Assembly: GCA_902775475.1 (NCBI GenBank)
Contig: CACYME010000005.1
Location: 29,642 to 93,641 of the forward strand
Source of the DNA: an uncultured Prevotellaceae bacterium
Lineage (GTDB): Bacteria; Bacteroidota; Bacteroidia; Bacteroidales; Bacteroidaceae
Direction of reading: 5' to 3'
Length of the DNA: 64,000 bases
The notes under the pieces: generated by a model
Databases searched by the model: none
Told to the model about the DNA's origin: nothing
What the model saw: only the letters and a program-made list of their open reading frames with translations
Shown here: piece after piece, positions 26,842 through 46,540 of the stretch
Position numbering within the stretch: position 1 is the first letter of the stretch
How the letters are laid out: the number at the start of each line of letters is the position of its first letter
Program-made: the position numbers and the translations under genes

Positions 26842-26849
26842 AATTTATG

Positions 26850-26857
26850 CAAAGTTA
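26850..26857 (-). promoter_or_regulatory. -7 promoter box TAACTTTG for the hybrid sensor gene
   Basis: Reverse complement of CAAAGTTA, 9 nt upstream of the ATG (cat 26839-26841). Confidence 0.5.
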
Positions 26858-27121
26858 CCAAAACGCTCTCAAACAACCTTGTCTATTTTTTACAAATCTG
26901 CAGTTTGTTAGAGATTCTAAACGAATTTTAATCAATTTTTCACACGTAGGGTCGTTTTGTAGCAACTCCGATGCCAGCGGAAAACATTTAGACATCTGAA
27001 CAAATGAAAGAAATTTTCGTAATTTACACAAGAGCCCACTTGAAACGTACTTTTCGAACGGGGCAGAAAAGGCACGATAAGGTTTCTGTCCTTTTCTGGT
27101 TGGGGGGGGCAGTGTAGCTAT

Positions 27122-27587: not shown

Positions 27588-27612
27588 ACTTAGACAAACA
27601 TCGTATTCTCTT

Positions 27613-27710
27613 AACAACGAATTAAGACGAATGGAACGAATGGCAAGGATTATACGAATTGCACTAATAGCAACGCGCAGCAATTCGTCCAATTCGTTAA
27701 ATTCGTTGTT
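27613..27710. promoter_or_regulatory. ~100-bp palindrome built from ACGAAT / ATTCGT words upstream of the AraC gene
   Basis: AACAACGAATTAAGACGAATGGAACGAATGG..TACGAATTGC - 17 nt - GCAATTCGTCCAATTCGTTAAATTCGTTGTT. The inner 9-bp arms are perfect and the outer 22-nt arms nearly so. Confidence 0.5.
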
Positions 27711-27881
27711 CATATAAATCATTTCGGTGTTTAGAAGGGACTACGAAAACGGGCTAAACGGGTGTTATAAACAGACAAACTCGTTGTATAGAAATGGCAA
27801 ATTGTCTGTTTTTACCTCATTTTGTAAGAAAGCGACAATTTTTTGTAAATTTTAGACAATAAGATTTCTAATAATTCTCAC

Positions 27882-27889
27882 TAACTTTG
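27882..27889 (+). promoter_or_regulatory. -7 promoter box TAACTTTG, the only such box found by eye in front of or inside the 22-kb cluster
   Basis: Matches TAnnTTTG, 13 nt upstream of ATG 27902. The TTG start at 27887 used by the ORF track lies inside the box. Confidence 0.55.
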
Positions 27890-27901
27890 CAACAACAGAA
27901 A

Positions 27902-28315
27902 ATGCTCATTTATGTGTTCATCAAAATGAATCAATTTAAGCATATCGAAGAACAGCTCCATCAGCTCCAGCTGAGCACCGCCGAGAAGGCTTTTCTCGAC
28001 GATGTGAGGACCTACATCCTGAGCAACATGGCCGAGGGTCACCTCTCCGTGGAGTCGGTTGCTGAAGGGCTGTTCATCCACGAGTCTAAACTGCGCCGCC
28101 GCATCGCCCAGTCCACGGGGCTCACCCCCCGGATGTTCCTGGCCGTGGTGCGCATGGAGCGCGCCTGCGAGTTCCTGACCACCTATCCCGCCATGACCAT
28201 CGAGCAGATTGCCTACGAATGCGGCTTCGCCGACCACAGCCACTTCACCCACTCCTTCCGCCGGCTCTTCGGCATGAGCCCCACCAGCTATGCCAGACAG
28301 CTGTCTGCTTCCTGA
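27902..28315 (+). CDS. Small AraC/XylS-family HTH transcriptional regulator (DNA-binding domain plus short N-terminal region)
   Basis: LFIHESKLRRRIAQSTGLTPRMFLAVVRMERACEFLTTYPAMTIEQIAYECGFADHSHFTHSFRRLFGMSPTSYARQ. Confidence 0.85.
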   Translation: MLIYVFIKMNQFKHIEEQLHQLQLSTAEKAFLDDVRTYILSNMAEGHLSVESVAEGLFIHESKLRRRIAQSTGLTPRMFLAVVRMERACEFLTTYPAMTIEQIAYECGFADHSHFTHSFRRLFGMSPTSYARQLSAS

Positions 28316-28343
28316 GAACAATCACCTCCAAAATAAGTGCGAT

Positions 28344-33388: not shown

Positions 33389-35188
33389 ATGATGAGCAGG
33401 AAAAATAACAATAAGGTACGCGCGTACATTAAATTTATTCTATGTACCGCAGCAATGCTGACCTCTTCCGGATGGAGGGGGCAGGGGGAGGTCTCGGCCC
33501 AGTCCATCACGCTGGGGCAGAACACCATCTCAAACATCGCCAAAAGCGACCCGCTCATCATCACTGGCGCCATCGGCACGCAGAACACCTATTACCACTC
33601 CTCCATAGGCAATGGCTACCGTTCACCGTGGGCCAACTCGTTCTACGCCGACCTTAACATCTCGCTCTATGGCATCTCCATGCCTTTTGCGTTCTACTAC
33701 AGCAACAACAACTCGTCGTGGAGCTTCCCCCACATCTCGTTCCACATCGACCCTACGTACAAGAACTGGCGCGGCCACTTCGGACGCTCCAATATGGGCA
33801 TGCACCCTTATCTGATGAACATGTCGTTCAACGGTGTGGGCCTGGAGTACAACTCCTCAAAAGTGCGCGTAGGAATCTTCCACGGCGAACTGCGCAATGC
33901 CATCAACGACGACCCCGAAAACCCCAGCGCCCGCAACCCGCAATATCGGCGCATGGGCTGGGGCATCAAGGCTGGCTATGGTTCCGGCCGCAACCACCTC
34001 GACCTGTCGTTTCTGCGAGCCTACGACCGCATCAACTCCATCGACCCGCGCTGGCAGGAAAGGATTAATCCACAAGACAACATCGCCGTGGCCGTAAAGG
34101 GCGGACTCGGCATCACCCGCTGGCTCACACTGCAGGGCAACCTGGCCTGGACAGCCTTCTCATCCGACAAGCGCGCCCAACGCCTGCATACCGAGCAAAC
34201 CGACCGCTGGGACAAGGTGTTCGACGCCCGTTACACCTCGCTGATGCGCATTGCCGGCGACATCTCAGCCACACTCAGCCTGAAGGGCTTCAACACCACT
34301 GTGTTCTATCGCATGGTGCAGCCCGACTACACCACCCTGGGACTCTACTACACCTCGAACAACTACCAGTCGCTGGGCATCAACGCCTCGACCACCCTCT
34401 TCAAGAAAGTAACCCTCTCGGCATCGTTCAGCGGCCAGGAGGACAACATAACGCGCCGCCAGCTCTACACCACGCGCGGCTTCGTCTACAACGCTACGGC
34501 TTCCACATCGCTCACAGAGAACCTCGCCCTCACTGCTGGCTACAGCGGCTATCGGCAGCTGCAATCCGACTGCAAAGCCCGCGTCAACGACACCACGCGT
34601 GTCAACCGCATCATGCACTCACTCTATCTCACCCCCTCCTACACTATCGACGGCGAAACCACCGAGAACACCTTCGCGCTCTCGGCCAGCTTCACCAAGA
34701 ACAAAGACCTGAATCGCTTCGCCACAGGCATCAGCGACGTGACGACATTCTCGGCCGGACTCAGCCACTCCATCATGGTGAAGCCATGGGAGATGTCGTT
34801 CTCGACCTCGCTATCCCACCAGCAGTCGAAGGGCTACCAGACACGCTACTCTTCCGAGATTCTCAGCTTCTCCACGGGACGCTCGTTCCTCAAGGAGAAG
34901 AACCTCTATACGTCGGCTGCCCTGTCGCTCTGCTACAACGACGTCCGCAACCAGCAGCGCAACCTCTCTGTGGGAGCCGACATCACGGCAGGCTATACGC
35001 TGGCCAAGGTGCACCAGTTCTCCTTCGCGGCCGGATTCAACAAATACAGCGACACCAACATCTCGGCCGACTACACTTCCATGGGCACCACCGAGATCAG
35101 CCTATCGCTCAACTACAACTACACCTTCTCGCTGCTCCAGCTGAAGAGCAAAAAGACGGCAGATGCGGCCTCCGGCCAAAATAAATAA
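33389..35188 (+). CDS. Putative outer-membrane beta-barrel protein (599 aa), family not recognised
   Basis: Signal peptide ...CTAAMLTSSGWRGQGEVSAQS. The sequence is Y/S/N/G/T-rich with alternating-hydrophobic strands throughout, e.g. LSASFSGQ, LTAGYSGY, FSAGLSHS and ISLSLNYNYTFSL near the C-terminus. Confidence 0.55.
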   Translation: MMSRKNNNKVRAYIKFILCTAAMLTSSGWRGQGEVSAQSITLGQNTISNIAKSDPLIITGAIGTQNTYYHSSIGNGYRSPWANSFYADLNISLYGISMPFAFYYSNNNSSWSFPHISFHIDPTYKNWRGHFGRSNMGMHPYLMNMSFNGVGLEYNSSKVRVGIFHGELRNAINDDPENPSARNPQYRRMGWGIKAGYGSGRNHLDLSFLRAYDRINSIDPRWQERINPQDNIAVAVKGGLGITRWLTLQGNLAWTAFSSDKRAQRLHTEQTDRWDKVFDARYTSLMRIAGDISATLSLKGFNTTVFYRMVQPDYTTLGLYYTSNNYQSLGINASTTLFKKVTLSASFSGQEDNITRRQLYTTRGFVYNATASTSLTENLALTAGYSGYRQLQSDCKARVNDTTRVNRIMHSLYLTPSYTIDGETTENTFALSASFTKNKDLNRFATGISDVTTFSAGLSHSIMVKPWEMSFSTSLSHQQSKGYQTRYSSEILSFSTGRSFLKEKNLYTSAALSLCYNDVRNQQRNLSVGADITAGYTLAKVHQFSFAAGFNKYSDTNISADYTSMGTTEISLSLNYNYTFSLLQLKSKKTADAASGQNK

Positions 35189-35201: not shown

Positions 35202-38200
35202 ATGGCTATGAATAAAAAAGAAAGAATAAAGAGTTTCTGCTCAATGATAAAGGACAGTCGATGGATGATGGCGTTAGCCCTATCATTTATCATTTACCAT
35301 TTGTCATTTAGCCGCGCAGCGGCGCAAGACGTGACCCTCCAGGTGACGCCCGTTCAGAGCGTGCTGCCCCCACAGGCCGGCAAGTATATCGACAACCTGG
35401 GCCGCTACTTCAGGGTGACCGTCATCAACAACACCGATGCCGCCCAGCGCATCTACTTTGGCGTTCAGGTGCAGCAGAAGTTCCCCAACGACGTGCTGTG
35501 GATGTCGACCAACGTGGAGACGATGCACATCCCTCAACAGCCCATCGTGCTCTCGCCCAACCAGCACAAGACGCTCAACAGCATCGAACTGAAGCACCTC
35601 TTCGACCACTTCGACTCGCACGACATCTTTGTGCGCGAAGGCCGCTACAAGAACATCCTCGACTCCGAGTTCGGTCTGCTCGACGAAGGACAATACGAGC
35701 TGCAGCTCACCGCCTACAAGTGGGATCCCGAGCTGTCGTCGCCCGTAGTGCTCAACAACCAAACCGATGGCCTGGCCCTCTTCAACATCTGCTACGAGGC
35801 CGAGGCCCCAACGTTCATCAGCCCTATCCGCTCGTTGGTGCCCGATGGTCTGAGCGACCTGGCCATCACCAAGATTAATAAGAAGCAGGCACAGATACGC
35901 TTTGAGTGGACGCAGCCCACGCTCAATTGCAACGCTACGATGGTGAACTACCGCTATCGCATCCGCTTCGTCGAACTCGGCTCGATGATGCCCGACGAGG
36001 CTATGGAGGAGAACACCATCACCTTCCTTGAGCAACGCGAGCTGCTGACCAACAGCTACAGCATACCAACGCCCTACGTCGCCCAGATGATTGCCGACAC
36101 TGCCGCCTACGGCAAAGTCTACGCCATGCAGGTGACGGCCTACACCCCTTATCAGAACAAAAACTCGCTCAACGTCGCTCTCATCAAGAACGAAGGCAAG
36201 AGCGACATCTTCCTCTTCCAGCTCTACGATCCGGAAAAAGCTGACAGAAGCGTTACGAAGGGCGAGGCGAAAGGCTCCGACGTGATAGCAGAAGACGGCG
36301 GGGTGCTCTACCGCTTCGAGCAGCCCACGCTGACATCACCACAGTTTCCTGACAACAGGAGCCGACTGATGTTTGTTGGCGACAGCATCAAGGTGGAGTG
36401 GCGCAAGGCCTGGTTTGCAGGCGGCAAGGGCGAACGCCAGGACACGGTGAACTTTGAGTACACCGTCAACCTCTTCAAGGGAAATACGGCCGACACCCGC
36501 GAGGTGATACTGAAAACCACCAAGCCCTTCTATACAAAGACCACCAAAGAACTGAAGGACACCATCCGATGGAAGGCCATTCAGTCGGAAATCAAATCTG
36601 GCGACTACTGCATCCTGCGCGTCACCGCCAAGCCCACCAACAAGCCCGACTCCATCTTCAAGATGCAGGGCGACTCACTCAACTTCAAGGACTTCGCCTT
36701 CACCTCGCACTTCGACGAGACCTACATGTGCGGACGCAACACCGCCACGGTGGAGAACAAGGAACCCATTGCCGAGAAGCCCAAGGCCGGCACAAGATAC
36801 AAGATTGGACAGTGGAACCTGGAACTCATCGACGAGCCATCCCGCCCGCTGGAGTTCGACAAGGAAAAGAAGACGCTGAAGGGCTTCGGGCGCATCGAAT
36901 GGAGCGTCATGAAACCCAAGGCCTACATCGCCGTGAAGTTCGACAGCCTGAAAGTCAATACCGACGGCATTGTCTTCGACGGCATCTGCAAGACCTACGC
37001 CAAGAGCAGCCAGAAGGTGGATGGCACCGAGTACACCGAAGAGCAGATTGTAGACTCACTGTTCTCGTTGGCCAGCCTCGACAATATCTTCGGCTCGCTG
37101 TCCATCCCGAAAAGTGTTCAGGACCGTGTCACTGGCTATGCCAAGGACGAGGCCACCAATCTGGCGAAGAGCTACAACCTGGGCAAATACTACACCCAGT
37201 ACAAGAAGGCCGAGACCACTTGGGAAAACTGGCAGAAGGGCGACCTGGGCGACCTCTACTTCCCCTTTGAGGCCCCCGATGAGATCAAGAAGTACCTGCC
37301 CAAGGACTTCAGCCTGCAGATTGGCAACATGACATTCTCGCCGTCGTATTCCGTGATGAACCTCATCGGTGCCATCACGCTGCCCAACAGCGACATCTTT
37401 GAAGACCAGAATGTGCTCGTCTTCGGCGCGCCACGCCTGTGCATCTCGCCCGACCGATTCTTCCCCGAGGACGGCGTGCTGGCTCTGCTGAGCAACTTCG
37501 TCATCAGCGACCCGTCGAGCGACTTCAAGCTTGTCTTCAAGGCTCCCTCCGACCCACTTAATCCCGTCACTGAAGACGGCTGCTTCATCAAGTGGGAGAA
37601 TGACGAGTTCGATGCCCTCGGCATGGAGATTGCCATGACCATCCCCAACACCACGCGCGTCGTCGACGGCAAGACACAGAAGGACGTGCCCGCCCTGCTC
37701 GACCTGTGGACCACCATTGAGGCCGGAGGCAACGCATGCGACTTCATCGCCGAAGGTACCATGACACCCTTCCAGGTGAACGACCTGCCCGACTGGACCT
37801 TCACCGTGGGCAAAAAGATTGTCTTTGACCACCACCTGGAGCGCAACGGCAAGAACATGCCCACCCTAAAGACCGTTGAGGAGTGGAGCAACAACACCTA
37901 CGACCTCAAGGAGGTAACCAACTACAAGAGCTGGGAAGCCTGGCAAGGGGTCTACATCGACGAAATCAGCGTCCAGTTCCCCAAGTGGGCGGTCATTGGC
38001 AACGGCGAGAAGGGTGTCACGCTCGGCGGTCAGCACATGATCTTCGATGCATCGGGCGTCACGGCCAAGTTCTTCGCCAAGGATGTGCTGAATGCTGAGA
38101 CGGGCAAGTGTGGCGGATGGAAGTTCACCATCGACGAAGCCAACGTGCAGATAGTGCAAAACAACTTCGACAACTGCTCCATCAAGGGCGGCTTCGGCGT

Positions 38201-41200
38201 GCCCCTGCTGGGCAAGGTGTCACAAGAGAAAGCTGGCGACAAGGCTGGCGACAAGGCCGGCGGCAAAGATGGCAGCGGAGGAAAGAGTGGCAGCGGCGAC
38301 AAGGGCAAAGAAGAGGAGCACCAGGATACTGACATTGATTATTTCTGCCAGATCCGCAACATGACCGACCCGGAATCCGTCGAGACGTACTACACCTACG
38401 ACAACGATGGCAAGAAGATTGAGCACACTCGCAAGAAGTACTACGAGGAAAAGAACCGCTATGGCTACGTCTTCACCACCCAGAATGCCAGCAAGGCCAA
38501 GCTGGGCCTCAACTTCTATATTGCCGACATGACGCTCCTTGAAAAGCAGACCTACTTCCTCGTGGAGTCGGTTGACACCGTCATCAACAAGGAGGAGACG
38601 CAGTACACGCAGGTGGAGCTGTGCATGGCCGGCGACATCACCATAGCTGGAATCGACCAGCTGAACGGCACCAAGAGCGATAGCCAAAAGAGCAGCTTCG
38701 CCAAGCGCGTGGAGGAAATCAACAAGAGTCTGCCTCTGCCACTCAAGCTGCCCGGCATACACTTCGCTAAGATGCGCCTGTCGAACAAGGCGCTCAATGA
38801 CTGGAAGAATCTGGGCGTTGACTTAGAGAACACCCACCAGAAGGGCATCGAGGCACAAGAGAAATGGGAGCAGGATAACAAGAAGCTCTACGAGTTCAGC
38901 GCCGGCAAGGAAATCGCTTTAGGCAAGGAGTGCTACTTCAACTACGGCGAATGGTCGCTTGCATCGGCCGAAAAGAAGCTGGGCCCCTTCACCTTCACCC
39001 TGAAAGAGTTCAAACCCGACATGAAGGGCGATAGCATCATGCTCGACGTGGAAGGCCAGATAGGCCTCATGGACGGAAAGTTTGCCGTGGGAGCTGGCAT
39101 CAGGCTCCAAGCCATGGCCCACACCCAAGGCTCCATCTCCGATTGGTACGTCGACGATGGCGAAGTGAAGTTCAAGAGCTTCGAAATGAATGTCGACTGG
39201 GAGGTGTTCAAGTTCAGTGGCCGCCTTGACCTTGAAGACTCCGGCACCGACAAGGGCTATGGCGGCAACATCAACCTGGAAATCAAAGACCTCTTCAAAC
39301 TCGACGTTGCCGGCGGCTACTACAATCACAAGGGCATCTCGGAAGAAGAGAAGAAGACAAAGATTGCCGACGCCAAACTTCGCGCTGCCAAAGAAGACCA
39401 CAACGAGAACCTCTACAAGAAATATTACAATCCCGATGAGGACTTCTACTCATGGGGCTACTTCCTCGCCACCGTCGGCGGCCAAGGCCTCCGCATAGAC
39501 CCCATCGTCATCAACCGCATCACGGGCGGCTTCTTCTACAACTGCAATCCCGTCGTAGGGCAGAAGGATGCCAAGGGGCGTCCCTCCTATACTGGTAAGC
39601 CAACGGCAAAATACGGCACCATCGGCGTGGTGTTCGGAGTGGGCATCACAACGTCGGGCGGCGAGGAGACCATCCAGGGCGACTTCGACGTAGTGGTCAT
39701 CTACGACAAGAAGAACAGCCGCATGTCGCACTTCGAGTTCAATGGCGACATATCGGCAGTGGGCGACATCGTCCATGCCAAGGCCAGCATCATCTACGAG
39801 AACAACGACGCCGACCGATACTTCTGCATGAACCTCACCATGACCGTCGGCCTCGACTCCGATGCCATGGTGGAAAAGCTGGGAGTCATCAGCAATGAAC
39901 TGTCAGCCCTGAAGAACGAGCTGGATAAATTCCAAGGCTCCATCAGCAGTGTCGTGATGAAGAAGCCCAGTAAGGATGAGATGAAGGGCGACCTTGACAA
40001 AATGGAAAGCGACTACGGTAACAAGACGAAGAAAGCTGACGAAAACAAGACCGACGAGAAAGTGAGCAAAGGTGCCCAGAAGAGCACGGTATCCTACGGA
40101 AAGACCGACATCTACGTGGAGTTCAAGGTGACCTACCGTGAGAATGGCAGCGATACATACCCGACGAAGTGGCACCTCTACCTGGGCGAGCCCAAGAAGG
40201 AAAAGCGGTGCCTGTTCCAGACCATCGATTACAAGGACGAGAATGGCATTATTGCAGTAAACATCGGCTCCGACGCCTACCTCTGCGTGGGCAACGAGCT
40301 GCCCGGCAACGGACAGCTGCCCGACATCCCGGCAGAGATTACCGAATTCCTCAACGGCCACAAGAACTCAGCCGTCTCCACTGGCGCTGACATGTCGAAG
40401 GTGAACAATGCACGCTCGAAAGTCATCAAGGACATGTTGCAGAATGCTGGCACCAAGGGCGGTGTCATGGTGGGCGCCTCCACATGGGGCTTCGTCAATG
40501 TCGAACTCGGACTGTTCTACGGCTACATGAAGGCCATCGGCGGTTTCGACATCTCGCTCGTCAAATATGCCAACCCGCAGTATTGCGCCAACTACGGCGG
40601 CTACATGGGCATCAACAACTGGTATGCCATGGGACAGCTCTACGCTTACCTCGCTGCCAAGTTTGGACTTCACATCAAGCTGGGCAAGCTCATCGACGAG
40701 CACGTCGACCTGGTTGACGCCGGCATCGGCGGGCTGTTCAAGCTGGGACTGCCATCACCCACATGGATTGAGGGCCAGGCACGCGTGAAGGTGAGCCTAC
40801 TGGGTGGACTGGTGAAGGTCGACAAGGGCTTCAACTTCTCCGCCGGTAGCAAGTGCGTGCCCTTCAAGGGCAATGCCCTCGACGACTTTGCACTCTTTGG
40901 CGATTTTACCGTGGCCGACGACGACGTCAATGAAGGCTGGAAGAAAGAGAACGCCGTCAGCGTCAAGGATGCCAAGAACATCCAGTTCAGCACCTACGCC
41001 AACCTCGGCGAGCGCTACCGACTCTACGACCCCACCACGGGCGGTGAGCTCAGCGAAGAGACGGGCTACAGCGAGGATCAGATGAGCCTCTATGCCTCGC
41101 GCACCTACATCTTCGACATCAACAAAGCCCGCGTCTTGGAGGAGAACAAAAATGCGAATTATAACATAAGCCTCGGAGCAAGACTCTACGAAATACCATT

Positions 41201-44200
41201 GGATGCCGACATCATTGTCGACCGAAAAACTTACAATTACTATAAAAATGGAACATTTACTGGCAATGGCTTCAAAGGTGTCGTAAAGCCCAATGACGAC
41301 AATTTCTTGAAATATTTATACAAAAACGACAAAGGCGGTTTGTATTCTTGGAACAATGCCATCATGAGCCGCTGGATGAAAAATCAGAATCTGGACTGTC
41401 AGGAGAAAGAAATGAATGAAGATGACTTTGAAGGGGATGAGGCATTATGGAATGTGAGATACTGGAAAGGCTATAACTTAAAGCGCGAATCGGAAAGAGA
41501 GACATGGCATGATCACTATGATGGTGTGGAAGAAATGATTAAGCCCTTCCTCGTTGCAGACACTATGCAATACCAGATAATGCCTGGGTTTTATTTACCT
41601 CTCCTGGTTCCTGGCGGTGTGACCATCAAGGAAAGCACCGGGCGTAATTTCCACCTGACGCTGTCTAACCTTAAGCCAGGCAAGCTTTATATCCTGGAAC
41701 TGAACGGCCAGGCCTTCGAGGTGCTCAACGGCAAGCGTGTGTGGACGAAAATGACAGTGACGACCAAAAAGAAGGGCAAAGAAAAGATGCGCGAGGAATA
41801 CGTGCGCTGGGAGCAGAAGCGCCTGGTGTTCTTCCGCACGAAGACCGAGGCGGAGGAGCAGGAAGCTATCCCCAACAACCCAACCGACATCCAGCCATAC
41901 GTGGCACTGGCCTACCCCTCGGCACCTGGCAACAAGCTCTTCCAGACCAAGGCAGAAGGAGAGAAGAACAGGGCCAACATCGTAGACATCAAGCGTCCCA
42001 CCATCGCCTTGAACACCGACATACGCTCGAAACTCTCGAGCGGAAAGCTGGAATGGGTGCTACAGGGATATGCCTACAACTCCACCGGTACGAGAGCCAT
42101 CAAGCAACAAACGATAGAAAACGAATTCAAGGATGTCAGCGGCTGCGTGAACATGCAGCCCAAGAAGGATTTCGACCTCTCCTCATTGCAGAACACGTAT
42201 CCTGAACTTGATGACTTCCAAATCTTGCTGAAACACACCTATCCCGTCTACAAGGGAACGACCAAGGTGGCTGCATCGGGAGAGTCTATGGATGAATTGA
42301 CAGCAAGATATGCGGCCGTGCACGGAGAGGGAGCATTGTACGATTATATCATTAATTACTATAACAATCTTGTCAGCGACGAAGCGAAGCTTGACATGAG
42401 CGGAGCTACGCTTGACAAAAAGGAAGCGACTTGCTTTGGGATAATATTGGGATTATATTTGGCAGGTAGTCAGCAGGCCGTAAACGACCTTCAAACCAAT
42501 TTATTAAGCTTATTGGGTACTCGATTTGTTGACCAAGAAGTTTACAAAGACACCACCGTCTATCTGGCCAACATGTGGTTCAAGGGTTTGCCCGAAGCCT
42601 CCTGGCATTTGGGCAACAATGGCCCTACGGCTTACGAGAAGCAGTTTGTGGGCATCCGCCCGTTCAACACGCCAGAATTTACCTTTGGCGGCTGGAACCC
42701 TGACGATGACTACACCACAGGCAACCAAAGTGAAGAGAACGGACAGCCGATGAGAATTGCCGACCCCTACCTCTATTTCGCCTACCTGTCGAAACATGTG
42801 TTCATCGGCGACGTGGCACTCGACAAATACGATTTCGACGATGTGAAAGTGCCGCACGCCAGCGAATCGCTCACCTTCAGCTTCAATGGCCACGGCATCT
42901 CAGGCTCGCTCATCCCAGGCAGCAAATACCGCGACAAACGCATGTCAACGCTACGCGGAGAGATGTACGACACCTGGAGGAAAGCCTGGTACTATAAAAA
43001 CAACACCAACTACTCTGACTTGGTCTATCCGCTGCCCCTGTATCCGGACGAAGACTGGGGACTGACAAGCAACAACCAGACGTTCATCTCGCAACGATAC
43101 AATAAGTTCAACAACTGGGATGTCAATTATGTTGGCTCGGCCGTCAGGCGGAGCGATAAGACAAAGGACGGCAAAGGCGGCAAATACCTGGCTCAGCAGT
43201 TCACCGCACCTTACTACATCGCCGAGACTTTGAGTAGACAAATGGGAAAGATTGCCAACCAGATTTATAATATCTACAAATCATCTTCCGACAACAAGAC
43301 AGTGAACAAGGCTATGATTGCCTGGCAGAATCTGCATCGCGGTCAATATCTGTCGGTGAGCAGTTGCGGTTTTGAGGTGAAAGTGCCCTACTATCAGTTC
43401 CCGCTCATCTTCGGCGACTGTCTCAGCGGCGACCGCACGTTCAGCAAGTCCATCAAGGACAATGCCGACAACCTCATCACCAAGTTCAGGAACGACAGGA
43501 AGACGTCCAACCTGTACTTCTTCCGCCTGATGGGAGGAACGCCATTAGACAAATACGATAAGAAAAATTATCCCTACATCTACAATTCCTCTGGCAATGT
43601 AACACAAGATTTATTCAGTGCTTCCGCAGCATTAAAAACAGTAAAGAAATTCGACTACCTGGCCTATCGCGTCAACAGCTACGACCTGTCAACCAATCGG
43701 TATGAGTACAATACCGGCATTGGCAATAATGGCACGTACGCTGGGACATATCCCAATACTGACGTGAGCGTCACGCTTGTCGACAATAACAACAACAATA
43801 CTAATGGTTACTACATCAATATGGAGTATGCCATGCGCACGTTGGGCCAACCGGATGTCTACATCAACGGGGTTCCCAATCAGAATTGGGGCGATGGCAA
43901 CAGTGCCATAGTGACCGCTACCGCATTGTCCAACCTCTCCCGATGGATGCAGGACAACGTGCCCGACCTCTATGCCATCTATAAGGAAAGTAACAATGCC
44001 AACAAGATCAAGATGCTGCAGGAATGGGCCAAGGCAAACGACCCGACGCTGGGCAAGGAGAACAAGGCCCTACACGATATCATGTTATGGGACAAAAATG
44101 CGGTTTCTTATTATAAAGTACAAAACCAGATTAATCTGATATATGGCATGCCTGCTACTTACCCCGAATCGGAACCCAAATTCCCCAACACGCTCTTCAA

Positions 44201-44237
44201 AGACATCATCTCACATAAATATGGAATTATATGGTAA
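35202..44237 (+). CDS. Giant exported protein, 3011 aa, unknown function
   Basis: A single uninterrupted ORF starting 13 nt after the OMP stop. Signal peptide-like MMALALSFIIYHLSFSRAAAQD. Charged low-complexity linkers occur, such as EKAGDKAGDKAGGKDGSGGKSGSGDKGKEEEH at 38217-38335. No catalytic motif was recognised by eye. Confidence 0.8.
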   Translation: MAMNKKERIKSFCSMIKDSRWMMALALSFIIYHLSFSRAAAQDVTLQVTPVQSVLPPQAGKYIDNLGRYFRVTVINNTDAAQRIYFGVQVQQKFPNDVLWMSTNVETMHIPQQPIVLSPNQHKTLNSIELKHLFDHFDSHDIFVREGRYKNILDSEFGLLDEGQYELQLTAYKWDPELSSPVVLNNQTDGLALFNICYEAEAPTFISPIRSLVPDGLSDLAITKINKKQAQIRFEWTQPTLNCNATMVNYRYRIRFVELGSMMPDEAMEENTITFLEQRELLTNSYSIPTPYVAQMIADTAAYGKVYAMQVTAYTPYQNKNSLNVALIKNEGKSDIFLFQLYDPEKADRSVTKGEAKGSDVIAEDGGVLYRFEQPTLTSPQFPDNRSRLMFVGDSIKVEWRKAWFAGGKGERQDTVNFEYTVNLFKGNTADTREVILKTTKPFYTKTTKELKDTIRWKAIQSEIKSGDYCILRVTAKPTNKPDSIFKMQGDSLNFKDFAFTSHFDETYMCGRNTATVENKEPIAEKPKAGTRYKIGQWNLELIDEPSRPLEFDKEKKTLKGFGRIEWSVMKPKAYIAVKFDSLKVNTDGIVFDGICKTYAKSSQKVDGTEYTEEQIVDSLFSLASLDNIFGSLSIPKSVQDRVTGYAKDEATNLAKSYNLGKYYTQYKKAETTWENWQKGDLGDLYFPFEAPDEIKKYLPKDFSLQIGNMTFSPSYSVMNLIGAITLPNSDIFEDQNVLVFGAPRLCISPDRFFPEDGVLALLSNFVISDPSSDFKLVFKAPSDPLNPVTEDGCFIKWENDEFDALGMEIAMTIPNTTRVVDGKTQKDVPALLDLWTTIEAGGNACDFIAEGTMTPFQVNDLPDWTFTVGKKIVFDHHLERNGKNMPTLKTVEEWSNNTYDLKEVTNYKSWEAWQGVYIDEISVQFPKWAVIGNGEKGVTLGGQHMIFDASGVTAKFFAKDVLNAETGKCGGWKFTIDEANVQIVQNNFDNCSIKGGFGVPLLGKVSQEKAGDKAGDKAGGKDGSGGKSGSGDKGKEEEHQDTDIDYFCQIRNMTDPESVETYYTYDNDGKKIEHTRKKYYEEKNRYGYVFTTQNASKAKLGLNFYIADMTLLEKQTYFLVESVDTVINKEETQYTQVELCMAGDITIAGIDQLNGTKSDSQKSSFAKRVEEINKSLPLPLKLPGIHFAKMRLSNKALNDWKNLGVDLENTHQKGIEAQEKWEQDNKKLYEFSAGKEIALGKECYFNYGEWSLASAEKKLGPFTFTLKEFKPDMKGDSIMLDVEGQIGLMDGKFAVGAGIRLQAMAHTQGSISDWYVDDGEVKFKSFEMNVDWEVFKFSGRLDLEDSGTDKGYGGNINLEIKDLFKLDVAGGYYNHKGISEEEKKTKIADAKLRAAKEDHNENLYKKYYNPDEDFYSWGYFLATVGGQGLRIDPIVINRITGGFFYNCNPVVGQKDAKGRPSYTGKPTAKYGTIGVVFGVGITTSGGEETIQGDFDVVVIYDKKNSRMSHFEFNGDISAVGDIVHAKASIIYENNDADRYFCMNLTMTVGLDSDAMVEKLGVISNELSALKNELDKFQGSISSVVMKKPSKDEMKGDLDKMESDYGNKTKKADENKTDEKVSKGAQKSTVSYGKTDIYVEFKVTYRENGSDTYPTKWHLYLGEPKKEKRCLFQTIDYKDENGIIAVNIGSDAYLCVGNELPGNGQLPDIPAEITEFLNGHKNSAVSTGADMSKVNNARSKVIKDMLQNAGTKGGVMVGASTWGFVNVELGLFYGYMKAIGGFDISLVKYANPQYCANYGGYMGINNWYAMGQLYAYLAAKFGLHIKLGKLIDEHVDLVDAGIGGLFKLGLPSPTWIEGQARVKVSLLGGLVKVDKGFNFSAGSKCVPFKGNALDDFALFGDFTVADDDVNEGWKKENAVSVKDAKNIQFSTYANLGERYRLYDPTTGGELSEETGYSEDQMSLYASRTYIFDINKARVLEENKNANYNISLGARLYEIPLDADIIVDRKTYNYYKNGTFTGNGFKGVVKPNDDNFLKYLYKNDKGGLYSWNNAIMSRWMKNQNLDCQEKEMNEDDFEGDEALWNVRYWKGYNLKRESERETWHDHYDGVEEMIKPFLVADTMQYQIMPGFYLPLLVPGGVTIKESTGRNFHLTLSNLKPGKLYILELNGQAFEVLNGKRVWTKMTVTTKKKGKEKMREEYVRWEQKRLVFFRTKTEAEEQEAIPNNPTDIQPYVALAYPSAPGNKLFQTKAEGEKNRANIVDIKRPTIALNTDIRSKLSSGKLEWVLQGYAYNSTGTRAIKQQTIENEFKDVSGCVNMQPKKDFDLSSLQNTYPELDDFQILLKHTYPVYKGTTKVAASGESMDELTARYAAVHGEGALYDYIINYYNNLVSDEAKLDMSGATLDKKEATCFGIILGLYLAGSQQAVNDLQTNLLSLLGTRFVDQEVYKDTTVYLANMWFKGLPEASWHLGNNGPTAYEKQFVGIRPFNTPEFTFGGWNPDDDYTTGNQSEENGQPMRIADPYLYFAYLSKHVFIGDVALDKYDFDDVKVPHASESLTFSFNGHGISGSLIPGSKYRDKRMSTLRGEMYDTWRKAWYYKNNTNYSDLVYPLPLYPDEDWGLTSNNQTFISQRYNKFNNWDVNYVGSAVRRSDKTKDGKGGKYLAQQFTAPYYIAETLSRQMGKIANQIYNIYKSSSDNKTVNKAMIAWQNLHRGQYLSVSSCGFEVKVPYYQFPLIFGDCLSGDRTFSKSIKDNADNLITKFRNDRKTSNLYFFRLMGGTPLDKYDKKNYPYIYNSSGNVTQDLFSASAALKTVKKFDYLAYRVNSYDLSTNRYEYNTGIGNNGTYAGTYPNTDVSVTLVDNNNNNTNGYYINMEYAMRTLGQPDVYINGVPNQNWGDGNSAIVTATALSNLSRWMQDNVPDLYAIYKESNNANKIKMLQEWAKANDPTLGKENKALHDIMLWDKNAVSYYKVQNQINLIYGMPATYPESEPKFPNTLFKDIISHKYGIIW

Positions 44238-46540
44238 GCAATAAGAATATCCTCGTTGTTGGGGCCACGCTGCTCATGAGCGGCTCCACGGCCATGGCCC
44301 AGTCTACTGACAGCATTGCCAGCCCAGACATCCTGACGGTAGCCGACAGTACCCAGCATCGTCAGCTGGTCGACGCCGACACCATCATCTACCAGGAGCC
44401 ATCCATCATCACCACGAAGATTCGCGCCCTGGCCCGCACCTATGGCGACAGCATCGCGCTGCGGTGGGTGCCCGAAGACTACGTGTCATGGCGCTACCTC
44501 TGCCAGACGGGCGTCAACATCCTTCGCACGGAGAGCAACGCCGAGACCTTTGCCATCGACACGCTGGCCTATGCGCTGAAGCCCCTCAGCGAGGAAGCGT
44601 TCAGGGCGAAGTATGCGCCCAACGACAGCAACGCGCTGGTGGCTCAGGGCATCCTCTATGGCGAGGGTCGCCTGGGTGCCAACCAGACCGAGAACTTCCC
44701 TGGCTCCATGGGGGCTTCGATGGAATACAACAACGAGCAGGATCTCTCATTTGCCTTCGCCATGCTCGTGGCCGAATGGCGCCCCGACCTGGCCCGCGAC
44801 ATGGCCGTAGGCTTCCTCGACCGCACCGCGCAGCCCGGCAAGATGTACGACTACTACATCCAGCCCACGCAGTGGGACACCGACGGCCGCCTCATCTTCG
44901 AGCCTGGTGTGGCTGAGCGCGTGAGAAACCATGAATACACGCCCGACATCTTCGACCCTCGGATGGTAGACTCCATCTCCAGTCCGCGCCGCCACGTGCT
45001 GGGCTGGTGGGACGACAAGTACTCCACTTATGACATCTATCGTCGCCACGTGAGCGATGCCGATGGCAATCCCGTTGACGGGACGTGGAAGCGCATCAAC
45101 CAAAAGCCCTATCTCTCCATCATCGAGCTGCCAGAGGGCGACGACTACAAAGCCTACTCCGACTCCGTGCCCAGCTTCGGCGTCTACGAATACTTTGTTG
45201 TGGGCCACGACCCCTTCGGCACCGCCAACCCATCGCTCCACCATCTCAAGGTGAACGTCTACGACAACGAGCCGCCATCGGCACCACAGCTGAAGGGTAT
45301 CGTCGTCGACTACCCCGACGACGACATCCGCGGACGAACGCGGGCACACATCATCTGGGAGAAGGACACGATAGAGGGCGACCTACAGGGCTACGTGGTC
45401 AGATACTACAACGCGAAGATCAGCGGCGAGACTTGGATAGAGCTGAACGACAAGATGATTCCCCCGACGGACACGATGTTTGTGGCCGACGTCACCGGCC
45501 TGCGCACGGGCATGCTGCAGGTGGCGGCCTACGACCTGTCGGGCAACGAGGCCACGTCGTTTTCGCAGCTCATCGAGCTACACGACTTCAAGGCTCCCGC
45601 CCCCCCTGACTCACTAACGGCACAGGTGGTGGTGCCACAACTGACACCGCTCTACAAGAAAGAGATGAAGCATGCCTACGTCATCCTACGCTGGAAGCCC
45701 AACCCTGCCGACGACGACATCATGCACTACGACATCGCCTTCGCCAACGACACCACCCACGCCTTCCAGCGACTCAACGAGCAGTCCATCAACGCCCAGT
45801 GGTTCATCGACTCGCTGGCCCTCGACGCCAACCAGAAATACATCTACTACAAGGTGCGCGCCACCGACTATTCTACCAACGAGGGCGAGTGGAGCCCCTG
45901 GATTCAGGTGAAGCGCCCACACCTCACACCGCCCACACAGCCCCACTTGGAACGCTCGAACAACAGCGACGAGGAGGGCATCCACATGGAGTGGGTGATA
46001 GGAACTGATGCCGACATGGAGTATCACAAAGCCTTCCGCCGCCGTGGCGAGGTGGGTGAATGGGAGCTGATAGGCCGCTACGACCACGACTCGCTGACGG
46101 CCCACAGCTACACCATCGTCATCGACGACCGGCCAGAGTTCGACCGCCAGCAGCGCTACTACTACTACGTGGAGTCGTTCAACTCGTCGCCCTTCACCTC
46201 GAAGAGCCTCGCCGTGAGCTTCCTCTTCCAGGGCCCGAAGATATGGGACGTCAGCCTGAAACTCATCGGCGACTACGACGAGAAGACGAACCTGACGCGA
46301 CTGGTGTGGGACACGGGCAAGCTGCCCTTCGATGCCCCCTACTACTACTGCATCTACCGGCGAGCCGCTGGCGAGGAGCGCTATGAATACATGGGCAACG
46401 TGCCAGCTGACACACAGGAATTCACCGACCAGCGCCTGAAGCCGGGCGAGCAGGCCGAGTACTATGTGATGATACAGTGGCGCGACGGACGGCAGAGCAC
46501 ACTGTCGAATACCATCACGGTGAAGAGAAGTGAAAAGTGA
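44231..46540 (+). CDS. Exported protein made of repeated fibronectin-type-III-like modules (769 aa)
   Basis: The start overlaps the giant gene stop (ATGGTAA). Signal peptide NILVVGATLLMSGSTAMAQS. There are 4-5 repeats of a W..(D/P)..D..GY..Y......W......Y.Y.V.A.D..GNE pattern, e.g. AHIIWEKDTIEGDLQGYVVRYY...LQVAAYDLSGNEATS and YVILRWKPNP...IYYKVRATDYSTNEGEWS. Confidence 0.6.
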   Translation: MVSNKNILVVGATLLMSGSTAMAQSTDSIASPDILTVADSTQHRQLVDADTIIYQEPSIITTKIRALARTYGDSIALRWVPEDYVSWRYLCQTGVNILRTESNAETFAIDTLAYALKPLSEEAFRAKYAPNDSNALVAQGILYGEGRLGANQTENFPGSMGASMEYNNEQDLSFAFAMLVAEWRPDLARDMAVGFLDRTAQPGKMYDYYIQPTQWDTDGRLIFEPGVAERVRNHEYTPDIFDPRMVDSISSPRRHVLGWWDDKYSTYDIYRRHVSDADGNPVDGTWKRINQKPYLSIIELPEGDDYKAYSDSVPSFGVYEYFVVGHDPFGTANPSLHHLKVNVYDNEPPSAPQLKGIVVDYPDDDIRGRTRAHIIWEKDTIEGDLQGYVVRYYNAKISGETWIELNDKMIPPTDTMFVADVTGLRTGMLQVAAYDLSGNEATSFSQLIELHDFKAPAPPDSLTAQVVVPQLTPLYKKEMKHAYVILRWKPNPADDDIMHYDIAFANDTTHAFQRLNEQSINAQWFIDSLALDANQKYIYYKVRATDYSTNEGEWSPWIQVKRPHLTPPTQPHLERSNNSDEEGIHMEWVIGTDADMEYHKAFRRRGEVGEWELIGRYDHDSLTAHSYTIVIDDRPEFDRQQRYYYYVESFNSSPFTSKSLAVSFLFQGPKIWDVSLKLIGDYDEKTNLTRLVWDTGKLPFDAPYYYCIYRRAAGEERYEYMGNVPADTQEFTDQRLKPGEQAEYYVMIQWRDGRQSTLSNTITVKRSEK

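What the first reader, a model, noticed from the sequence alone, without database searches (positions are those of the whole stretch)
35202..44237. 3011-aa uninterrupted ORF with modular architecture and no recognisable domain
This is the largest gene in the window. It starts 13 nt after the OMP stop and overlaps the next gene start. It has a long N-region plus hydrophobic core (MMALALSFIIYHLSFSRAAAQ). It is punctuated by strongly charged low-complexity linkers. One is EKAGDKAGDKAGGKDGSGGKSGSGDKGKEEEH at 38217-38335, which includes a tandem GCTGGCGACAAG duplication. Others are KGISEEEKKTKIADAKLRAAKEDH around 39330-39400 and KKPSKDEMKGDLDKMESDYGNKTKKADENKTDEKVSKG around 39960-40075. Between the linkers lie Gly/aromatic-rich amphipathic beta-type segments. 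Examples are GASTWGFVNVELGLFYGYMKAIGGFDISLV and LYAYLAAKFGLHIKLGKL...GGLFKLGLPSPTWIEGQARVKVSLLGGLVKVDKGFNF. These resemble similar segments in the 811-aa lipoprotein (VLVFWISADVYLDLDLSATITIS; GLRVELTIGIGIYGKVLSVRF). Such segments could form a very large beta-sheet, barrel or groove structure. That reading is inference only.
Basis: partly seen in the sequence, partly recalled or inferred. Interest (0 to 1): 0.7.

Follow-up and report, generated by a model that had tools for sequence, protein, structure and literature searches.

The report
Giant envelope protein with toxin-type N-terminus
This 3011-residue gene is real and belongs to a large, unnamed family of giant exported proteins of Bacteroidota, always encoded between its own outer-membrane protein and a fibronectin-type protein; its front end is related to the delivery module of a little-studied class of bacterial toxins, so it may mark an undescribed surface display or export machine.

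Summary
The ORF (35202-44237, 3011 aa) is confirmed and is not an artefact. There are 98 close homologs, and 1788 clusters (at 50% identity) match its core. Direct scans (Pfam, NCBIfam, PADLOC, PDB sequences) find nothing.

Its anatomy is:
- a Sec signal peptide (conserved A|Q site);
- an N-terminal array of beta-sandwich domains (aa ~42-603);
- a non-repetitive core (aa ~604-1990) of long amphipathic antiparallel strands.
- a weakly conserved C module, then a lineage-specific tail. Relatives carry BspA-type LRRs there instead.

The N-module is homologous (HHalign 99.5%, E 2e-22) to the N-terminus of a Persicobacter PT-HINT toxin whose architecture matches TANFOR-class polymorphic toxins.

The gene order ~570-600-aa OMP, giant, ~700-aa Fn3 protein holds across Bacteroidales, Cytophagales and distant relatives. 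T9SS-cargo genes and a TPR sensor kinase lie alongside.

My best reading is an outer-membrane-anchored surface display or delivery platform. This mechanism is inferred. Whether the core is a barrel or an open sheet is unresolved. The claimed resemblance to the 811-aa lipoprotein is not homology.

The parts
35202..44237 (+). Giant ORF, 3011 aa (2990 aa if translation starts at M22)
   Evidence: 98 homologs of 2100-4770 aa; P0001 is 99% identical
35202..35324 (+). Sec signal peptide, aa 1-41, with predicted SPase I site AAA|QD. An N-terminal Gln after cleavage fits the Bacteroidetes 'Q-rule' (own knowledge)
   Evidence: sequence; A41 and Q42 at least 90% conserved
35325..37010 (+). N-module, aa 42-603: tandem Ig/Fn3-like beta-sandwich domains, homologous to the N-terminus of PT-HINT (TANFOR-type architecture) toxins
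   Evidence: AF2 model and Foldseek hits to tandem Fn3/MG arrays; HHalign 93.5% single sequence, 99.5% and E 2e-22 profile-profile; HMMER E 3.9e-11; shuffled controls at most 0.5%
37011..38216 (+). Core part 1, aa 604-1005: helical insert at aa ~613-678, then beta-rich block M1, one of the best conserved stretches
   Evidence: retained in the 1560-aa Persicobacter core protein
38217..38321 (+). Charged low-complexity loop, aa 1006-1040 (EKAGDKAGDK...), containing the 12-nt tandem repeat. Disordered and poorly conserved
   Evidence: pLDDT below 50; occupancy 0.65; TRF
38322..39857 (+). Core part 2 (B1), aa 1041-1552: meander of long amphipathic strands, with a helical charged insert at aa ~1381-1407. 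Relatives give sub-threshold DUF6603 matches here
   Evidence: DUF6603 in P0096 at 25.6 bits, and in 2 of 10 relatives at E 6.5e-7
39858..40091 (+). Helix plus disordered charged loop, aa 1553-1630 (KKPSKDEMKGD...)
   Evidence: pLDDT 34-46
40092..41171 (+). Core part 3 (B2), aa 1631-1990: the most conserved block (WHLYLGEP, YLCIGNELP, WYAMGQxYAYL), with four conserved Cys. It is the part that reaches the most distant relatives
41172..41618 (+). Variable spacer, aa 1991-2139
   Evidence: identity 0.09, occupancy 0.48
41619..43706 (+). C module, aa 2140-2835: weakly conserved (25-35% identity) and lower in G+C (0.49 against 0.56)
43707..44234 (+). Lineage-specific tail, aa 2836-3011, shared only with the four closest homologs. 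Relatives carry BspA-type LRR or Ig-like arrays here
33389..35188 (+). Dedicated predicted outer-membrane beta-barrel protein (599 aa), 13 nt upstream. It is the best conserved gene of the cluster
   Evidence: 874 homologs at 55-89% identity; present in 73 of 83 loci; 22.5% identity over the full length to the Persicobacter OMP, HMM E 5e-57; no Pfam or PDB match
44231..46540 (+). 769-aa Sec-exported Fn3-containing protein, overlapping the giant's stop codon. Third member of the conserved triad
   Evidence: Persicobacter homolog E 1e-70; L088 and L089
28290..33229 (+). Two paralogous T9SS-cargo genes (620 and 1001 aa) with short C-terminal sorting domains
   Evidence: motifs match the Prevotella short CTDs of PMC11969387
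46537..49832 (+). Two lipoprotein genes: ~261-280 aa (lipobox LVAC) and 811 aa starting at 47397 (lipobox MASC)
23923..28315 (.). Regulators: a TPR-HisKA-HATPase-receiver-AraC hybrid sensor (23923-26841, minus strand) and a small AraC-type ORF (27887-28315, plus strand)
   Evidence: the sensor is found within 10 kb in 30 of 83 loci

Best explanation
The ORF encodes a Sec-exported giant envelope protein of an unnamed family found across Bacteroidota.

Shown:
- After a cleavable signal peptide comes a ~560-aa array of beta-sandwich domains. This array is homologous to the N-terminal module of PT-HINT toxins with TANFOR-type architecture.
- Next comes a ~1400-aa non-repetitive core of long amphipathic antiparallel strands, with conserved cysteines and charged loop insertions.
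- Last come a fast-evolving C module and a lineage-specific tail. Relatives carry BspA-type LRR or Ig-like arrays there.
- The gene always sits in the order OMP (~570-600 aa), giant, Fn3 protein (~700-770 aa). T9SS-cargo genes and a TPR sensor kinase lie next to it.
- In Persicobacter, and in fragments in Bergeyella, the same parts are split. A core protein lacks the N-module, and separate toxin genes carry it.

Inferred mechanism:
- The triad is an outer-membrane display or delivery platform.
- The dedicated OMP exports or anchors the giant, and the hydrophobic face of the beta core associates with the outer membrane.
- The N-module is the docking or trafficking element.
- The variable C-terminal part is exposed at the cell surface for binding. 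In split systems a toxin takes its place.
- The neighbouring T9SS cargoes and lipoproteins are surface partners.
- In concept this resembles two-partner secretion (CdiB/CdiA) without being related to it.
For: Reality and family:
- 98 homologs cover aa 20-1975.
- 1788 clusters at 50% identity match the core profile, 864 of them at E<=1e-30.
- 323 relatives were confirmed by tblastn among GTDB species-representative genomes. The 80 loci listed are all Bacteroidales.
- Further relatives occur in Brumimicrobium, Persicobacter and Bergeyella.

Export:
- The signal peptide has a conserved A|Q site.
- Invariant cysteines fit an oxidising compartment.

Structure:
- AF2 and DSSP show long strands and tandem beta-sandwiches.
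- The strands are amphipathic.
- Foldseek matches giant OM barrels for the core and Fn3/MG arrays for the N-module.

Synteny:
- The order is conserved in 83 loci.
- It also holds in distant loci L001, L084, L088, L089, L090 and L091.
- The Persicobacter triad has the OMP at E 5e-57, the core at HHalign 100%, and the Fn3 protein at E 1e-70.

N-module shared with toxins:
-.
- Bergeyella has core fragments, three ORFs bearing the N3 block, and a deaminase gene.

Surface exposure:
- Relatives have C-terminal BspA-type LRR or Ig arrays.
- The C-terminal third diverges fastest and has a different G+C content.

T9SS cargo neighbours:
-.

Literature:
- TANFOR neighbourhoods are enriched in SprB, Fn3 and Por_Secre_tail domains, and the secretion route of TANFOR proteins is unknown (PMC7073777).
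- The Tannerella forsythia TANFOR protein is 3078 aa. It has a 548-560-aa gene overlapping upstream and a 665-683-aa exported protein downstream.
- That protein was detected in an OMV/EV proteome (PMC10682907).
Against: - No experiment bears on localisation or function.
- The OMP is called a barrel only from composition, its signal peptide and one homolog's OMP_b-brl hit. I did not model it.
- The AF2 models are of medium confidence (pLDDT 71-72, pTM 0.46-0.52). Foldseek TM-scores are 0.1-0.2, so the fold class of the core is open.
- NCBIfam (which should include TIGR02542, TANFOR) gave no hit on the giant at E<=0.1.
The TANFOR label therefore rests on architecture alone.
- The window's own tail has no recognisable binding or toxin domain.
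- Split core-plus-toxin loci were seen in only two lineages.
Confidence: 0.4

Rival explanations
1. The core is itself a giant outer-membrane beta-barrel, a SprA-like translocon. It would form the pore through which neighbouring proteins or TANFOR-type toxins cross the outer membrane.
For: - Foldseek's top PDB hits for aa 1040-1990 are SprA (8gl6_A, E 1.8e-5, prob 1.0), SlpA/SDBC, LptD and FimD.
- The segment has about 36 long amphipathic strands with aromatic residues at strand ends.
- T9SS cargo genes are always adjacent.
Against: - TM-scores are only 0.1-0.2, and target-normalised scores to 18-26-strand barrels are 0.17-0.29.
- Hydrophobic faces run along strands of 18-21 residues, longer than a membrane belt needs.
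- Beta structure continues upstream from aa ~530, which gives far more strands than any known barrel.
- There is no SprA_N or other OMP Pfam hit.
- A separate dedicated OMP is already encoded upstream.
Confidence: 0.2
2. It is a bridge-like or groove-type carrier of lipids or other hydrophobic molecules, analogous to TamB, AsmA, YhdP or VPS13. Its long sheet would line a hydrophobic channel across the periplasm or at the cell surface.
For: - One face of nearly every long strand is strongly hydrophobic.
- Groups of strands are separated by disordered or helical charged loops.
- Foldseek also lists ApoB100 and vitellogenin lipid-binding sheets (ranks 14, 19, 49).
Against: - It has a cleavable signal peptide with a conserved A|Q site, not an inner-membrane anchor.
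- There is no AsmA, DUF490 or DUF748 Pfam hit even at E=10.
- No TamB, VPS13, ATG2 or Lpt jellyroll appears in the top 50 Foldseek hits.
- There is no repeating unit.
- Adhesin-type C-terminal extensions in relatives point outward.
Confidence: 0.1
3. The protein is itself a polymorphic toxin or effector of the TANFOR class, and its lineage-specific C-terminal tail is the payload.
For: - The N-module is shared with PT-HINT toxins.
- The C-terminus is variable and differs in G+C content.
- TANFOR proteins carry variable C-terminal toxins (PMC7073777).
Against: - Neither the window protein nor the 98 homologs have a PT-HINT, toxin or any other Pfam domain of that kind in the C-terminal third.
- There is no small variable immunity-type gene downstream. 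The next gene overlaps the stop codon and is conserved family-wide.
- The alternative tails in relatives are LRR or Ig adhesin-type domains.
Confidence: 0.1
4. The ORF is an assembly or annotation artefact, a fusion of several genes, or a pseudogene that is not expressed.
For: There is no expression data for this organism. The high G+C content produces many long spurious ORFs on other frames.
Against: - Full-length collinear homologs down to about 30% identity occur on many independent contigs.
- The seven-block architecture is intact in 167 of 233 relatives.
- The signal peptide, cysteines and motifs are conserved.
- A 3078-aa TANFOR protein was detected by proteomics in T. forsythia. Its homology to this protein was not tested.
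Confidence: 0.02

Closest known systems
TANFOR-domain large proteins / TANFOR-class polymorphic toxins of Bacteroidetes (TIGR02542; Jana, Salomon & Bosis 2020, PMC7073777)
   Same: - Sec signal, then an N-terminal array of ~150-aa beta-sandwich domains with Fn3.
- Sizes of 2000-4000 aa and restriction to Bacteroidota.
- Neighbourhoods rich in T9SS cargo (SprB/CTD) and Fn3 proteins.
- The T. forsythia member is 3078 aa, with a ~550-aa gene overlapping upstream and a ~670-aa exported protein downstream.
- The giant's N-module is homologous to a PT-HINT toxin of this architecture.
   Different: - TIGR02542 is not detected in the window protein.
- Hallella seregens, which carries a homolog (L069), scored 0 TANFOR proteins in the paper's Supplemental Data 2.
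- There is no C-terminal toxin and no immunity gene.
- The paper describes neither the ~1400-aa beta core nor the OMP-giant-Fn3 triad.
Two-partner secretion / contact-dependent inhibition (CdiB-CdiA, FhaC-FhaB)
   Same: - An OMP gene lies immediately upstream of a giant exported protein.
- The protein has a conserved N-terminal part and a variable C-terminus.
- Related loci carry toxin cassettes.
   Different: - No sequence relationship: there is no TPS domain, no beta-helical FHA repeats, and no POTRA/Omp85 signature in the OMP.
- A conserved Fn3 partner and T9SS cargo neighbours are present here.
SprA/Sov, the 36-strand T9SS translocon
   Same: - Bacteroidota-specific, over 2400 aa and Sec-exported.
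- It is the best Foldseek match of the core.
- It is genomically associated with T9SS cargo.
   Different: - TM-score is only 0.2.
- There is no SprA_N Pfam hit.
- Conserved neighbours differ.
- The giant carries an N-terminal Ig/Fn3 array and a variable tail.
AsmA-like / repeating beta-groove lipid transfer proteins (TamB, YhdP, VPS13)
   Same: Very long amphipathic beta meander interrupted by disordered loops.
   Different: - Cleavable signal peptide instead of a membrane anchor.
- No family HMM hit.
- No repeat unit.
- No Foldseek match.
DUF6603 (PF20248)
   Same: Sub-threshold matches of relatives in block B1: P0096 at 25.6 bits against a cutoff of 27, and 2 of 10 relatives with best E 6.5e-7.
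   Different: - The window protein itself gives no hit.
- Only profile positions 39-163 of 502 are matched.
- The family has no known function, and the full-text library holds no literature on it.

Membership tests
TANFOR-domain proteins (TIGR02542) | Match to the TIGR02542 / T_forsyth_147 model | tested here: not met
   The NCBIfam scan of the whole protein gave 0 families at E<=0.1. NCBI names relatives only 'hypothetical protein'.
TANFOR-domain proteins (TIGR02542) | N-terminal position directly after a Sec signal, accompanied by Fn3-type domains, in a large Bacteroidota protein | tested here: met
   Signal peptide and tandem beta-sandwich/Fn3-like array at aa 42-603. Homology to the N-terminus of a PT-HINT toxin with signal peptide and fn3 at 297-379.
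TANFOR-domain proteins (TIGR02542) | The bridging Persicobacter toxin is itself TIGR02542-positive | not tested
This is inferred only from its architecture, which is the same as Chryseolinea flava WP_112745954.1 in the paper's Supplemental Data 1.
TANFOR-class polymorphic toxins | Variable C-terminal toxin domain (often after PT-HINT) with a downstream immunity gene | tested here: not met
   No Pfam hit in aa 1991-3011 at E<=10. The next gene overlaps the stop codon and is conserved family-wide.
TANFOR-class neighbourhood | Adjacent T9SS cargo (CTD) and Fn3 protein genes | tested here: met
   g620 and g1001 carry short CTDs and g769 carries fn3. The arrangement is conserved in 69-74 of 83 loci.
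T9SS cargo | [quoted passage not shown] | tested here: not met
   No PF18962 or PF13585 hit. The C-terminus ...SHKYGIIW lacks motifs B, D and E.
SprA/Sov translocon | SprA_N domains and a closed 36-strand barrel | tested here: not met
   No Pfam hit. The Foldseek match has TM 0.20/0.11 and rmsd 29 A. Barrel closure could not be assessed.
AsmA-like / TamB | AsmA, DUF490 or DUF748 domains and an N-terminal inner-membrane anchor | tested here: not met
   No Pfam hit at E<=10 on thirds of the protein. The signal peptide is cleavable with a conserved A|Q site.
Two-partner secretion (TpsA/TpsB) | TPS domain in the exoprotein; Omp85/POTRA partner | tested here: not met
   No Haemagg_act, Fil_haemagg, ShlB or POTRA hits in the giant or in 35 OMP homologs.
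DUF6603 (PF20248) | Score at or above the Pfam gathering cutoff of 27 bits | tested here: not met
   The window protein gives no hit. Relative P0096 scores 25.6 bits, and 2 of 10 relatives have best E 6.5e-7.
Unnamed giant family (this work): N1-N2-N3-M1-B1-B2-C | Collinear match to all seven family blocks, and a position between the OMP and the Fn3 gene | tested here: met
   The block HMMs were built on this protein's family, and 167 of 233 relatives have all seven blocks. Synteny is shown.

The most novel reading that the evidence does not exclude
The OMP-giant-Fn3 triad may be an unrecognised outer-membrane export and display system of Bacteroidota. It would be functionally analogous to two-partner secretion or CDI but unrelated to them, and possibly coupled to T9SS cargo.

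It would be the missing delivery route for TANFOR-class polymorphic toxins. The shared N-terminal module would be the docking signal and the giant beta core the platform. In gut and rumen Bacteroidales the signal and the platform would be fused into a single ~3000-aa surface protein with exchangeable adhesive tips.
Probability: 0.3. Interest if true: 0.85.

Novelty: new variant of a known kind. Interest (0 to 1): 0.7.

Why it matters
- The family is very large: 1788 clusters at 50% identity, often with 2-3 copies per genome in rumen and gut Bacteroidales. Each copy costs the cell about 9 kb plus six partner genes, yet it has no Pfam or NCBIfam model and no name.
- Linking it to TANFOR-type toxins, and to a strictly conserved OMP and Fn3 partner, gives a concrete and testable candidate for how this toxin class leaves the cell. 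The 2020 paper could only suggest T9SS.
- It also points to a possible new way for Prevotella and its relatives to display adhesins such as BspA-type LRRs. Those adhesins are relevant to colonisation of the gut, rumen and oral cavity.

Tried and rejected
- Direct scans of the giant against Pfam, NCBIfam and PADLOC, whole and in thirds, up to E=10: nothing.
- PDB sequence search with the single protein and with a family profile: only a spurious low-complexity SNF5 hit.
- OMP family profile against PDB and Pfam: nothing usable.
- Foldseek against viral structures: no meaningful match.
- tblastn of the core against phage genomes: no match, so a phage origin is rejected.
- Internal repeats by BLAST and by HHalign of family blocks: none. 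A repeat-module architecture, including an RBG-type unit, is therefore not supported.
- Homology of the giant to any operon neighbour, including the 811-aa lipoprotein: rejected.
- Pfam on five distant relatives: nothing.
- Literature searches for DUF6603, PF20248, giant barrels, and Prevotella giant proteins: nothing relevant.
- Search for a second N-module (toxin-like) gene in the 83 Bacteroidales loci: none found, only frameshift fragments.
- Cluster look-ups for names: only 'hypothetical protein' or 'leucine-rich repeat domain-containing protein'.
- I could not obtain model coordinates, so barrel closure and any hydrophobic belt were not examined.

Full report
**Observation.** The window holds one uninterrupted ORF at 35202..44237 (+) of 3011 codons, the longest in the window.
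- It starts 13 nt after the stop of a 599-aa ORF, and the next ORF (start 44231) overlaps it by 7 nt.
- The N-terminus reads MAMNKKERIKSFCSMIKDSRW-MMALALSFIIYHLSF-SRAAA|QD. A41 and Q42 are at least 90% conserved in homologs, which fits a signal peptidase I site. An N-terminal Gln after cleavage is the Bacteroidetes 'Q-rule' (own knowledge).
- Public gene calls for the near-identical protein P0001 start at M22 (2990 aa).
- The three charged stretches are at the stated coordinates. The 12-nt tandem GCTGGCGACAAG is present in 2.9 copies at 38232-38266.
- Pfam, NCBIfam, PADLOC and PDB sequence searches give nothing, even on thirds of the protein at E<=10.

**Not an artefact.**
- A search of 5.8 billion proteins returned 98 homologs of 1784-4766 aa (30-99% identity). 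All are unnamed or 'hypothetical protein [Prevotella sp.]'.
- BLAST mapping shows a universal core at aa ~20-1975, a second module at aa ~2140-2835 in most homologs, and a tail (aa ~2850-3011) shared only with the four closest.
- Longer relatives (4300-4770 aa) replace the tail with BspA-type LRR arrays. One relative carries Ig-like (Cep192/HYDIN/filamin) arrays.
- A profile of aa 1040-1990 found 1788 clusters at 50% identity (864 at E<=1e-30). Nearly all are proteins of 2100-5000 aa.
- A scan of GTDB species-representative genomes confirmed 323 relatives by tblastn. The 80 loci listed are all Bacteroidales: Prevotellaceae, Bacteroidaceae, Muribaculaceae and Porphyromonadaceae, mostly rumen and gut MAGs. 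Two are cultured, Hallella seregens ATCC 51272 and Prevotella sp. 885. Several genomes have 2-3 copies.
- More distant members occur in Brumimicrobium, Persicobacter and Bergeyella.

**Anatomy.** I ran AlphaFold2 on two overlapping pieces, each with an alignment of 30 family members.

Residues 22-1200 (pLDDT 72, pTM 0.46):
- tandem beta-sandwich domains to about aa 520;
- further strands, then a helical insert at aa ~613-678;
- a beta-rich block from aa ~680 to 1000;
- a disordered stretch at aa 1013-1040.
- Foldseek matches tandem Fn3, MG and Ig arrays: insulin-receptor Fn3, CD109, C5a peptidase, transglutaminase and RbmA.

Residues 1040-1990 (pLDDT 71, pTM 0.52):
- about 36 antiparallel strands of 9-21 residues joined by tight turns;
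- three long insertions: aa ~1150-1230; a helix at 1381-1407; a helix plus disorder at 1553-1630.
- almost every long strand has one strongly hydrophobic face and one polar face;
- four cysteines (C1670, C1695, C1795, C1885) are invariant or nearly so.
- Foldseek against the PDB ranks giant outer-membrane barrels first: SprA 8gl6_A at E 1.8e-5, then SlpA/SDBC, SusC, LptD and FimD. ApoB100 and vitellogenin sheets come lower.
- All TM-scores are 0.1-0.2, so only the class 'very large antiparallel sheet' is supported. I could not inspect coordinates.

Other anatomical points:
- There are no internal repeats. BLAST finds none, and all-against-all HHalign of 150-aa family blocks gives at best 27%, between two Fn3-like domains.
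- Conservation peaks at aa 701-800 and 1701-1900. It collapses at aa 1001-1100, 2001-2100 and beyond 2900.
- G+C falls from ~0.56 in the first two-thirds of the gene to ~0.49 in the last third.
- Two of ten relatives give sub-threshold DUF6603 matches in block B1.

**Context.** In 83 related loci the gene order is the same wherever the contig reaches: one or two g620/g1001-like genes, the OMP, the giant, a ~700-770-aa Fn3 protein, a ~230-280-aa lipoprotein, and usually a ~740-830-aa lipoprotein.
- The OMP is the best conserved gene (49-87% identity, against 31-70% for the giant).
- It has 874 homologs and no Pfam or PDB match, apart from one OMP_b-brl hit.
- A TPR-HisKA-HATPase-receiver-AraC hybrid sensor, and often a small AraC protein, lie alongside.
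- The two upstream genes of the window are paralogs. Their C-termini read ...T/GI...(Y/F)DLxGR...KG(I/M)xI...RKVV(Q)R, 44-50 aa in all.
- Homologs in other loci give consistent sub-threshold Por_Secre_tail hits at E 7e-6 to 0.03.
- No neighbour is homologous to the giant (HHalign at most 1.4%).

**The key lead.**
- tblastn of the most conserved block against plasmid records hit a 1.58-Mb replicon of Persicobacter sp. JZB09 (Cytophagales) and a Bergeyella porcorum plasmid.
- In Persicobacter (L087) the triad is present in a smaller form:
  - a 581-aa OMP (full-length match, HMM E 5e-57);
  - a 1560-aa protein that aligns to giant aa 624-2690 (HHalign 100%) but has no N-module;
  - a 689-aa Fn3 protein (E 1e-70).
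- One kilobase downstream lies a 2119-aa protein with a signal peptide, fn3 (297-379) and a Pretoxin-HINT domain (1700-1825). A 353-aa gene follows it.
- The first ~480 residues of that protein are homologous to giant aa 39-603:
  - HHalign 93.5% with the single sequence;
  - HMMER E 3.9e-11, with reversed and shuffled controls at most 0.5%;
  - 99.5% and E 2e-22 when a profile of it plus six homologs is used.
- Both families begin, right after the signal peptide, with the same motif: AQ..YPVQA..L.PPY against AQDVTLQVTPVQSVLPPQAG.
- Upstream in that locus are a SprB-repeat/CTD protein, a CHU_C (type B CTD) protein and a PorP/SprF-OmpA protein.
- In Bergeyella, fragments of the core (B1, B2) are followed by three ORFs carrying block N3 and by a deaminase-domain gene.
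- Block HMMs show that the fused architecture (N1-N3 plus M1-B1-B2) is the rule, even in distant 2100-2340-aa relatives. Those relatives keep the OMP-giant-Fn3 order, a TPR kinase and, in L088, an upstream T9SS cargo.

**Comparison with the literature.**
- The Persicobacter toxin has the architecture of the TANFOR-class polymorphic toxins of Jana, Salomon and Bosis (PMC7073777).
- That class is defined by a Sec signal, an N-terminal TANFOR domain (TIGR02542, ~147 aa) with Fn3, and variable C-terminal toxins. Its neighbourhoods are enriched in SprB, Fn3 (COG3401), PKD and Por_Secre_tail.
- Their Supplemental Data 1 lists Chryseolinea flava WP_112745954.1: 2184 aa, TANFOR 90-197, FN3 289-376, PT-HINT 1768-1890, with a 548-aa gene 6 bp upstream.
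- It also lists Tannerella forsythia WP_052449025.1: 3078 aa with four tandem TANFOR domains at 72-652. A 548-560-aa exported protein overlaps it upstream and a 665-683-aa exported protein lies downstream. In sizes and order this matches the triad.
- That T. forsythia protein was detected in an OMV/EV proteome (PMC10682907).
- The authors could only hypothesise T9SS as the export route.
- The window protein itself gave no NCBIfam hit. Hallella seregens, which carries a homolog, scored zero TANFOR proteins in their table.
- Membership in TANFOR as currently defined is therefore not met. The relationship is a remote one, established through the toxin's N-module.

**Interpretation.**
- Shown: a real, conserved, Sec-exported giant protein with an N-terminal beta-sandwich array shared with PT-HINT toxins; a huge non-repetitive amphipathic beta core; a fast-evolving C-terminal third with exchangeable tips; and an invariant OMP and Fn3 partnership next to T9SS cargo genes.
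- Inferred: the triad is an outer-membrane display or delivery platform.
  - The split (core plus N-module toxin) and fused arrangements are a Rosetta-stone argument that the N-module works with the core.
  - Adhesin-type tips in relatives argue that the C-terminus is outside the cell.
  - With no CTD and no lipobox, the tightly coupled and best-conserved OMP is the obvious route or anchor.
- I give this mechanism about 0.4.
- Rivals: a SprA-like giant translocon barrel (0.2), a hydrophobic-groove carrier (0.1), the giant as a toxin itself (0.1), and an artefact (0.02).

**Verdict.**
The 'modules' and the lipoprotein resemblance are not.
- The protein is best filed as a divergent, toxin-less variant of the poorly understood TANFOR-type giants.
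- It brings to light a conserved core and partner set that the literature has not described.

Noticed in passing
window 28290-33229: Two paralogous exported proteins (620 and 1001 aa) end in 44-50-aa sequences that fit the 'short' T9SS sorting domain known from Prevotella intermedia. They also share a ~60-aa motif (...FITVHTDGGE.V.FRL...) at both ends, and weakly with the 280-aa lipoprotein (46537-47379; BLAST E 0.003).
   Followed up: partly
window 23923-28315: A TPR-HisKA-HATPase-receiver-AraC hybrid sensor (minus strand) and a small AraC-type ORF (27887-28315) flank an AT-rich gap (27000-27999, G+C 0.38). The same regulator types accompany the cluster in distant loci. Non-Bacteroidales relatives have a TPR kinase plus a GerE-type response regulator instead.
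   Followed up: partly
window 28000-50000: G+C is uneven within the one gene cluster: g620 0.64-0.67, the first two-thirds of the giant ~0.56, its last third 0.49, and the 811-aa lipoprotein gene 0.45-0.46. The low-G+C parts are also the least conserved, which suggests mosaic replacement of surface-exposed parts.
   Followed up: partly
L087 (Persicobacter sp. JZB09 CP012852.1) 20124-30755: A 2119-aa PT-HINT toxin-like gene is followed by a 353-aa gene (weak PQQ_2 and DUF4221 hits, possibly immunity). A second ORF at 29424-30755 also carries the N3 block. This looks like an array of alternative toxin genes beside the OMP-core-Fn3 triad.
   Followed up: partly
L086 (Bergeyella porcorum pQD2021) 10927-24980: A 70-kb plasmid carries fragmented core pieces (B1, B2), three ORFs with the N3 block (two annotated as Fn3 proteins) and a deaminase-domain gene. 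The many short CDSs suggest frameshifts or decay.
   Followed up: partly
L024, L028, L065 (one MAG, RGIG4794); L006, L016 (RUG12472); L004, L007 (RGIG3793): Single genomes carry two or three diverged copies of the whole cluster, as expected if the copies have different specificities.
   Followed up: no
window 33389-35188: The 599-aa predicted OMP is far better conserved (49-87% identity) than the giant it precedes. It has 874 homologs but no Pfam, NCBIfam or PDB relative, so it appears to be an undescribed OMP family in its own right.
   Followed up: partly
literature (PMC7073777 Supplemental Data 1; PMC10682907): The Tannerella forsythia TANFOR protein WP_052449025.1 is 3078 aa. It has a 548-560-aa exported protein overlapping upstream and a 665-683-aa exported protein downstream, and it was detected in an OMV/EV proteome. 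It is likely the nearest studied relative, but its sequence could not be fetched to test this.
   Followed up: partly
window 28245-30203 (-) and other antisense ORFs: Long ORFs on the opposite strand (for example 652 aa opposite g620) have Arg/Gly/Ala-rich nonsense-like translations. They are shadow ORFs of G+C-rich coding sequence, not genes.
   Followed up: no
window 2867-9633: An unrelated 1885-aa bacterial alpha-2-macroglobulin gene (MG2, A2M, bMG10) is followed by a DUF1573/HYDIN-type Ig protein. DUF1573 genes also recur near the giant cluster in loci L090 and L091.
   Followed up: no
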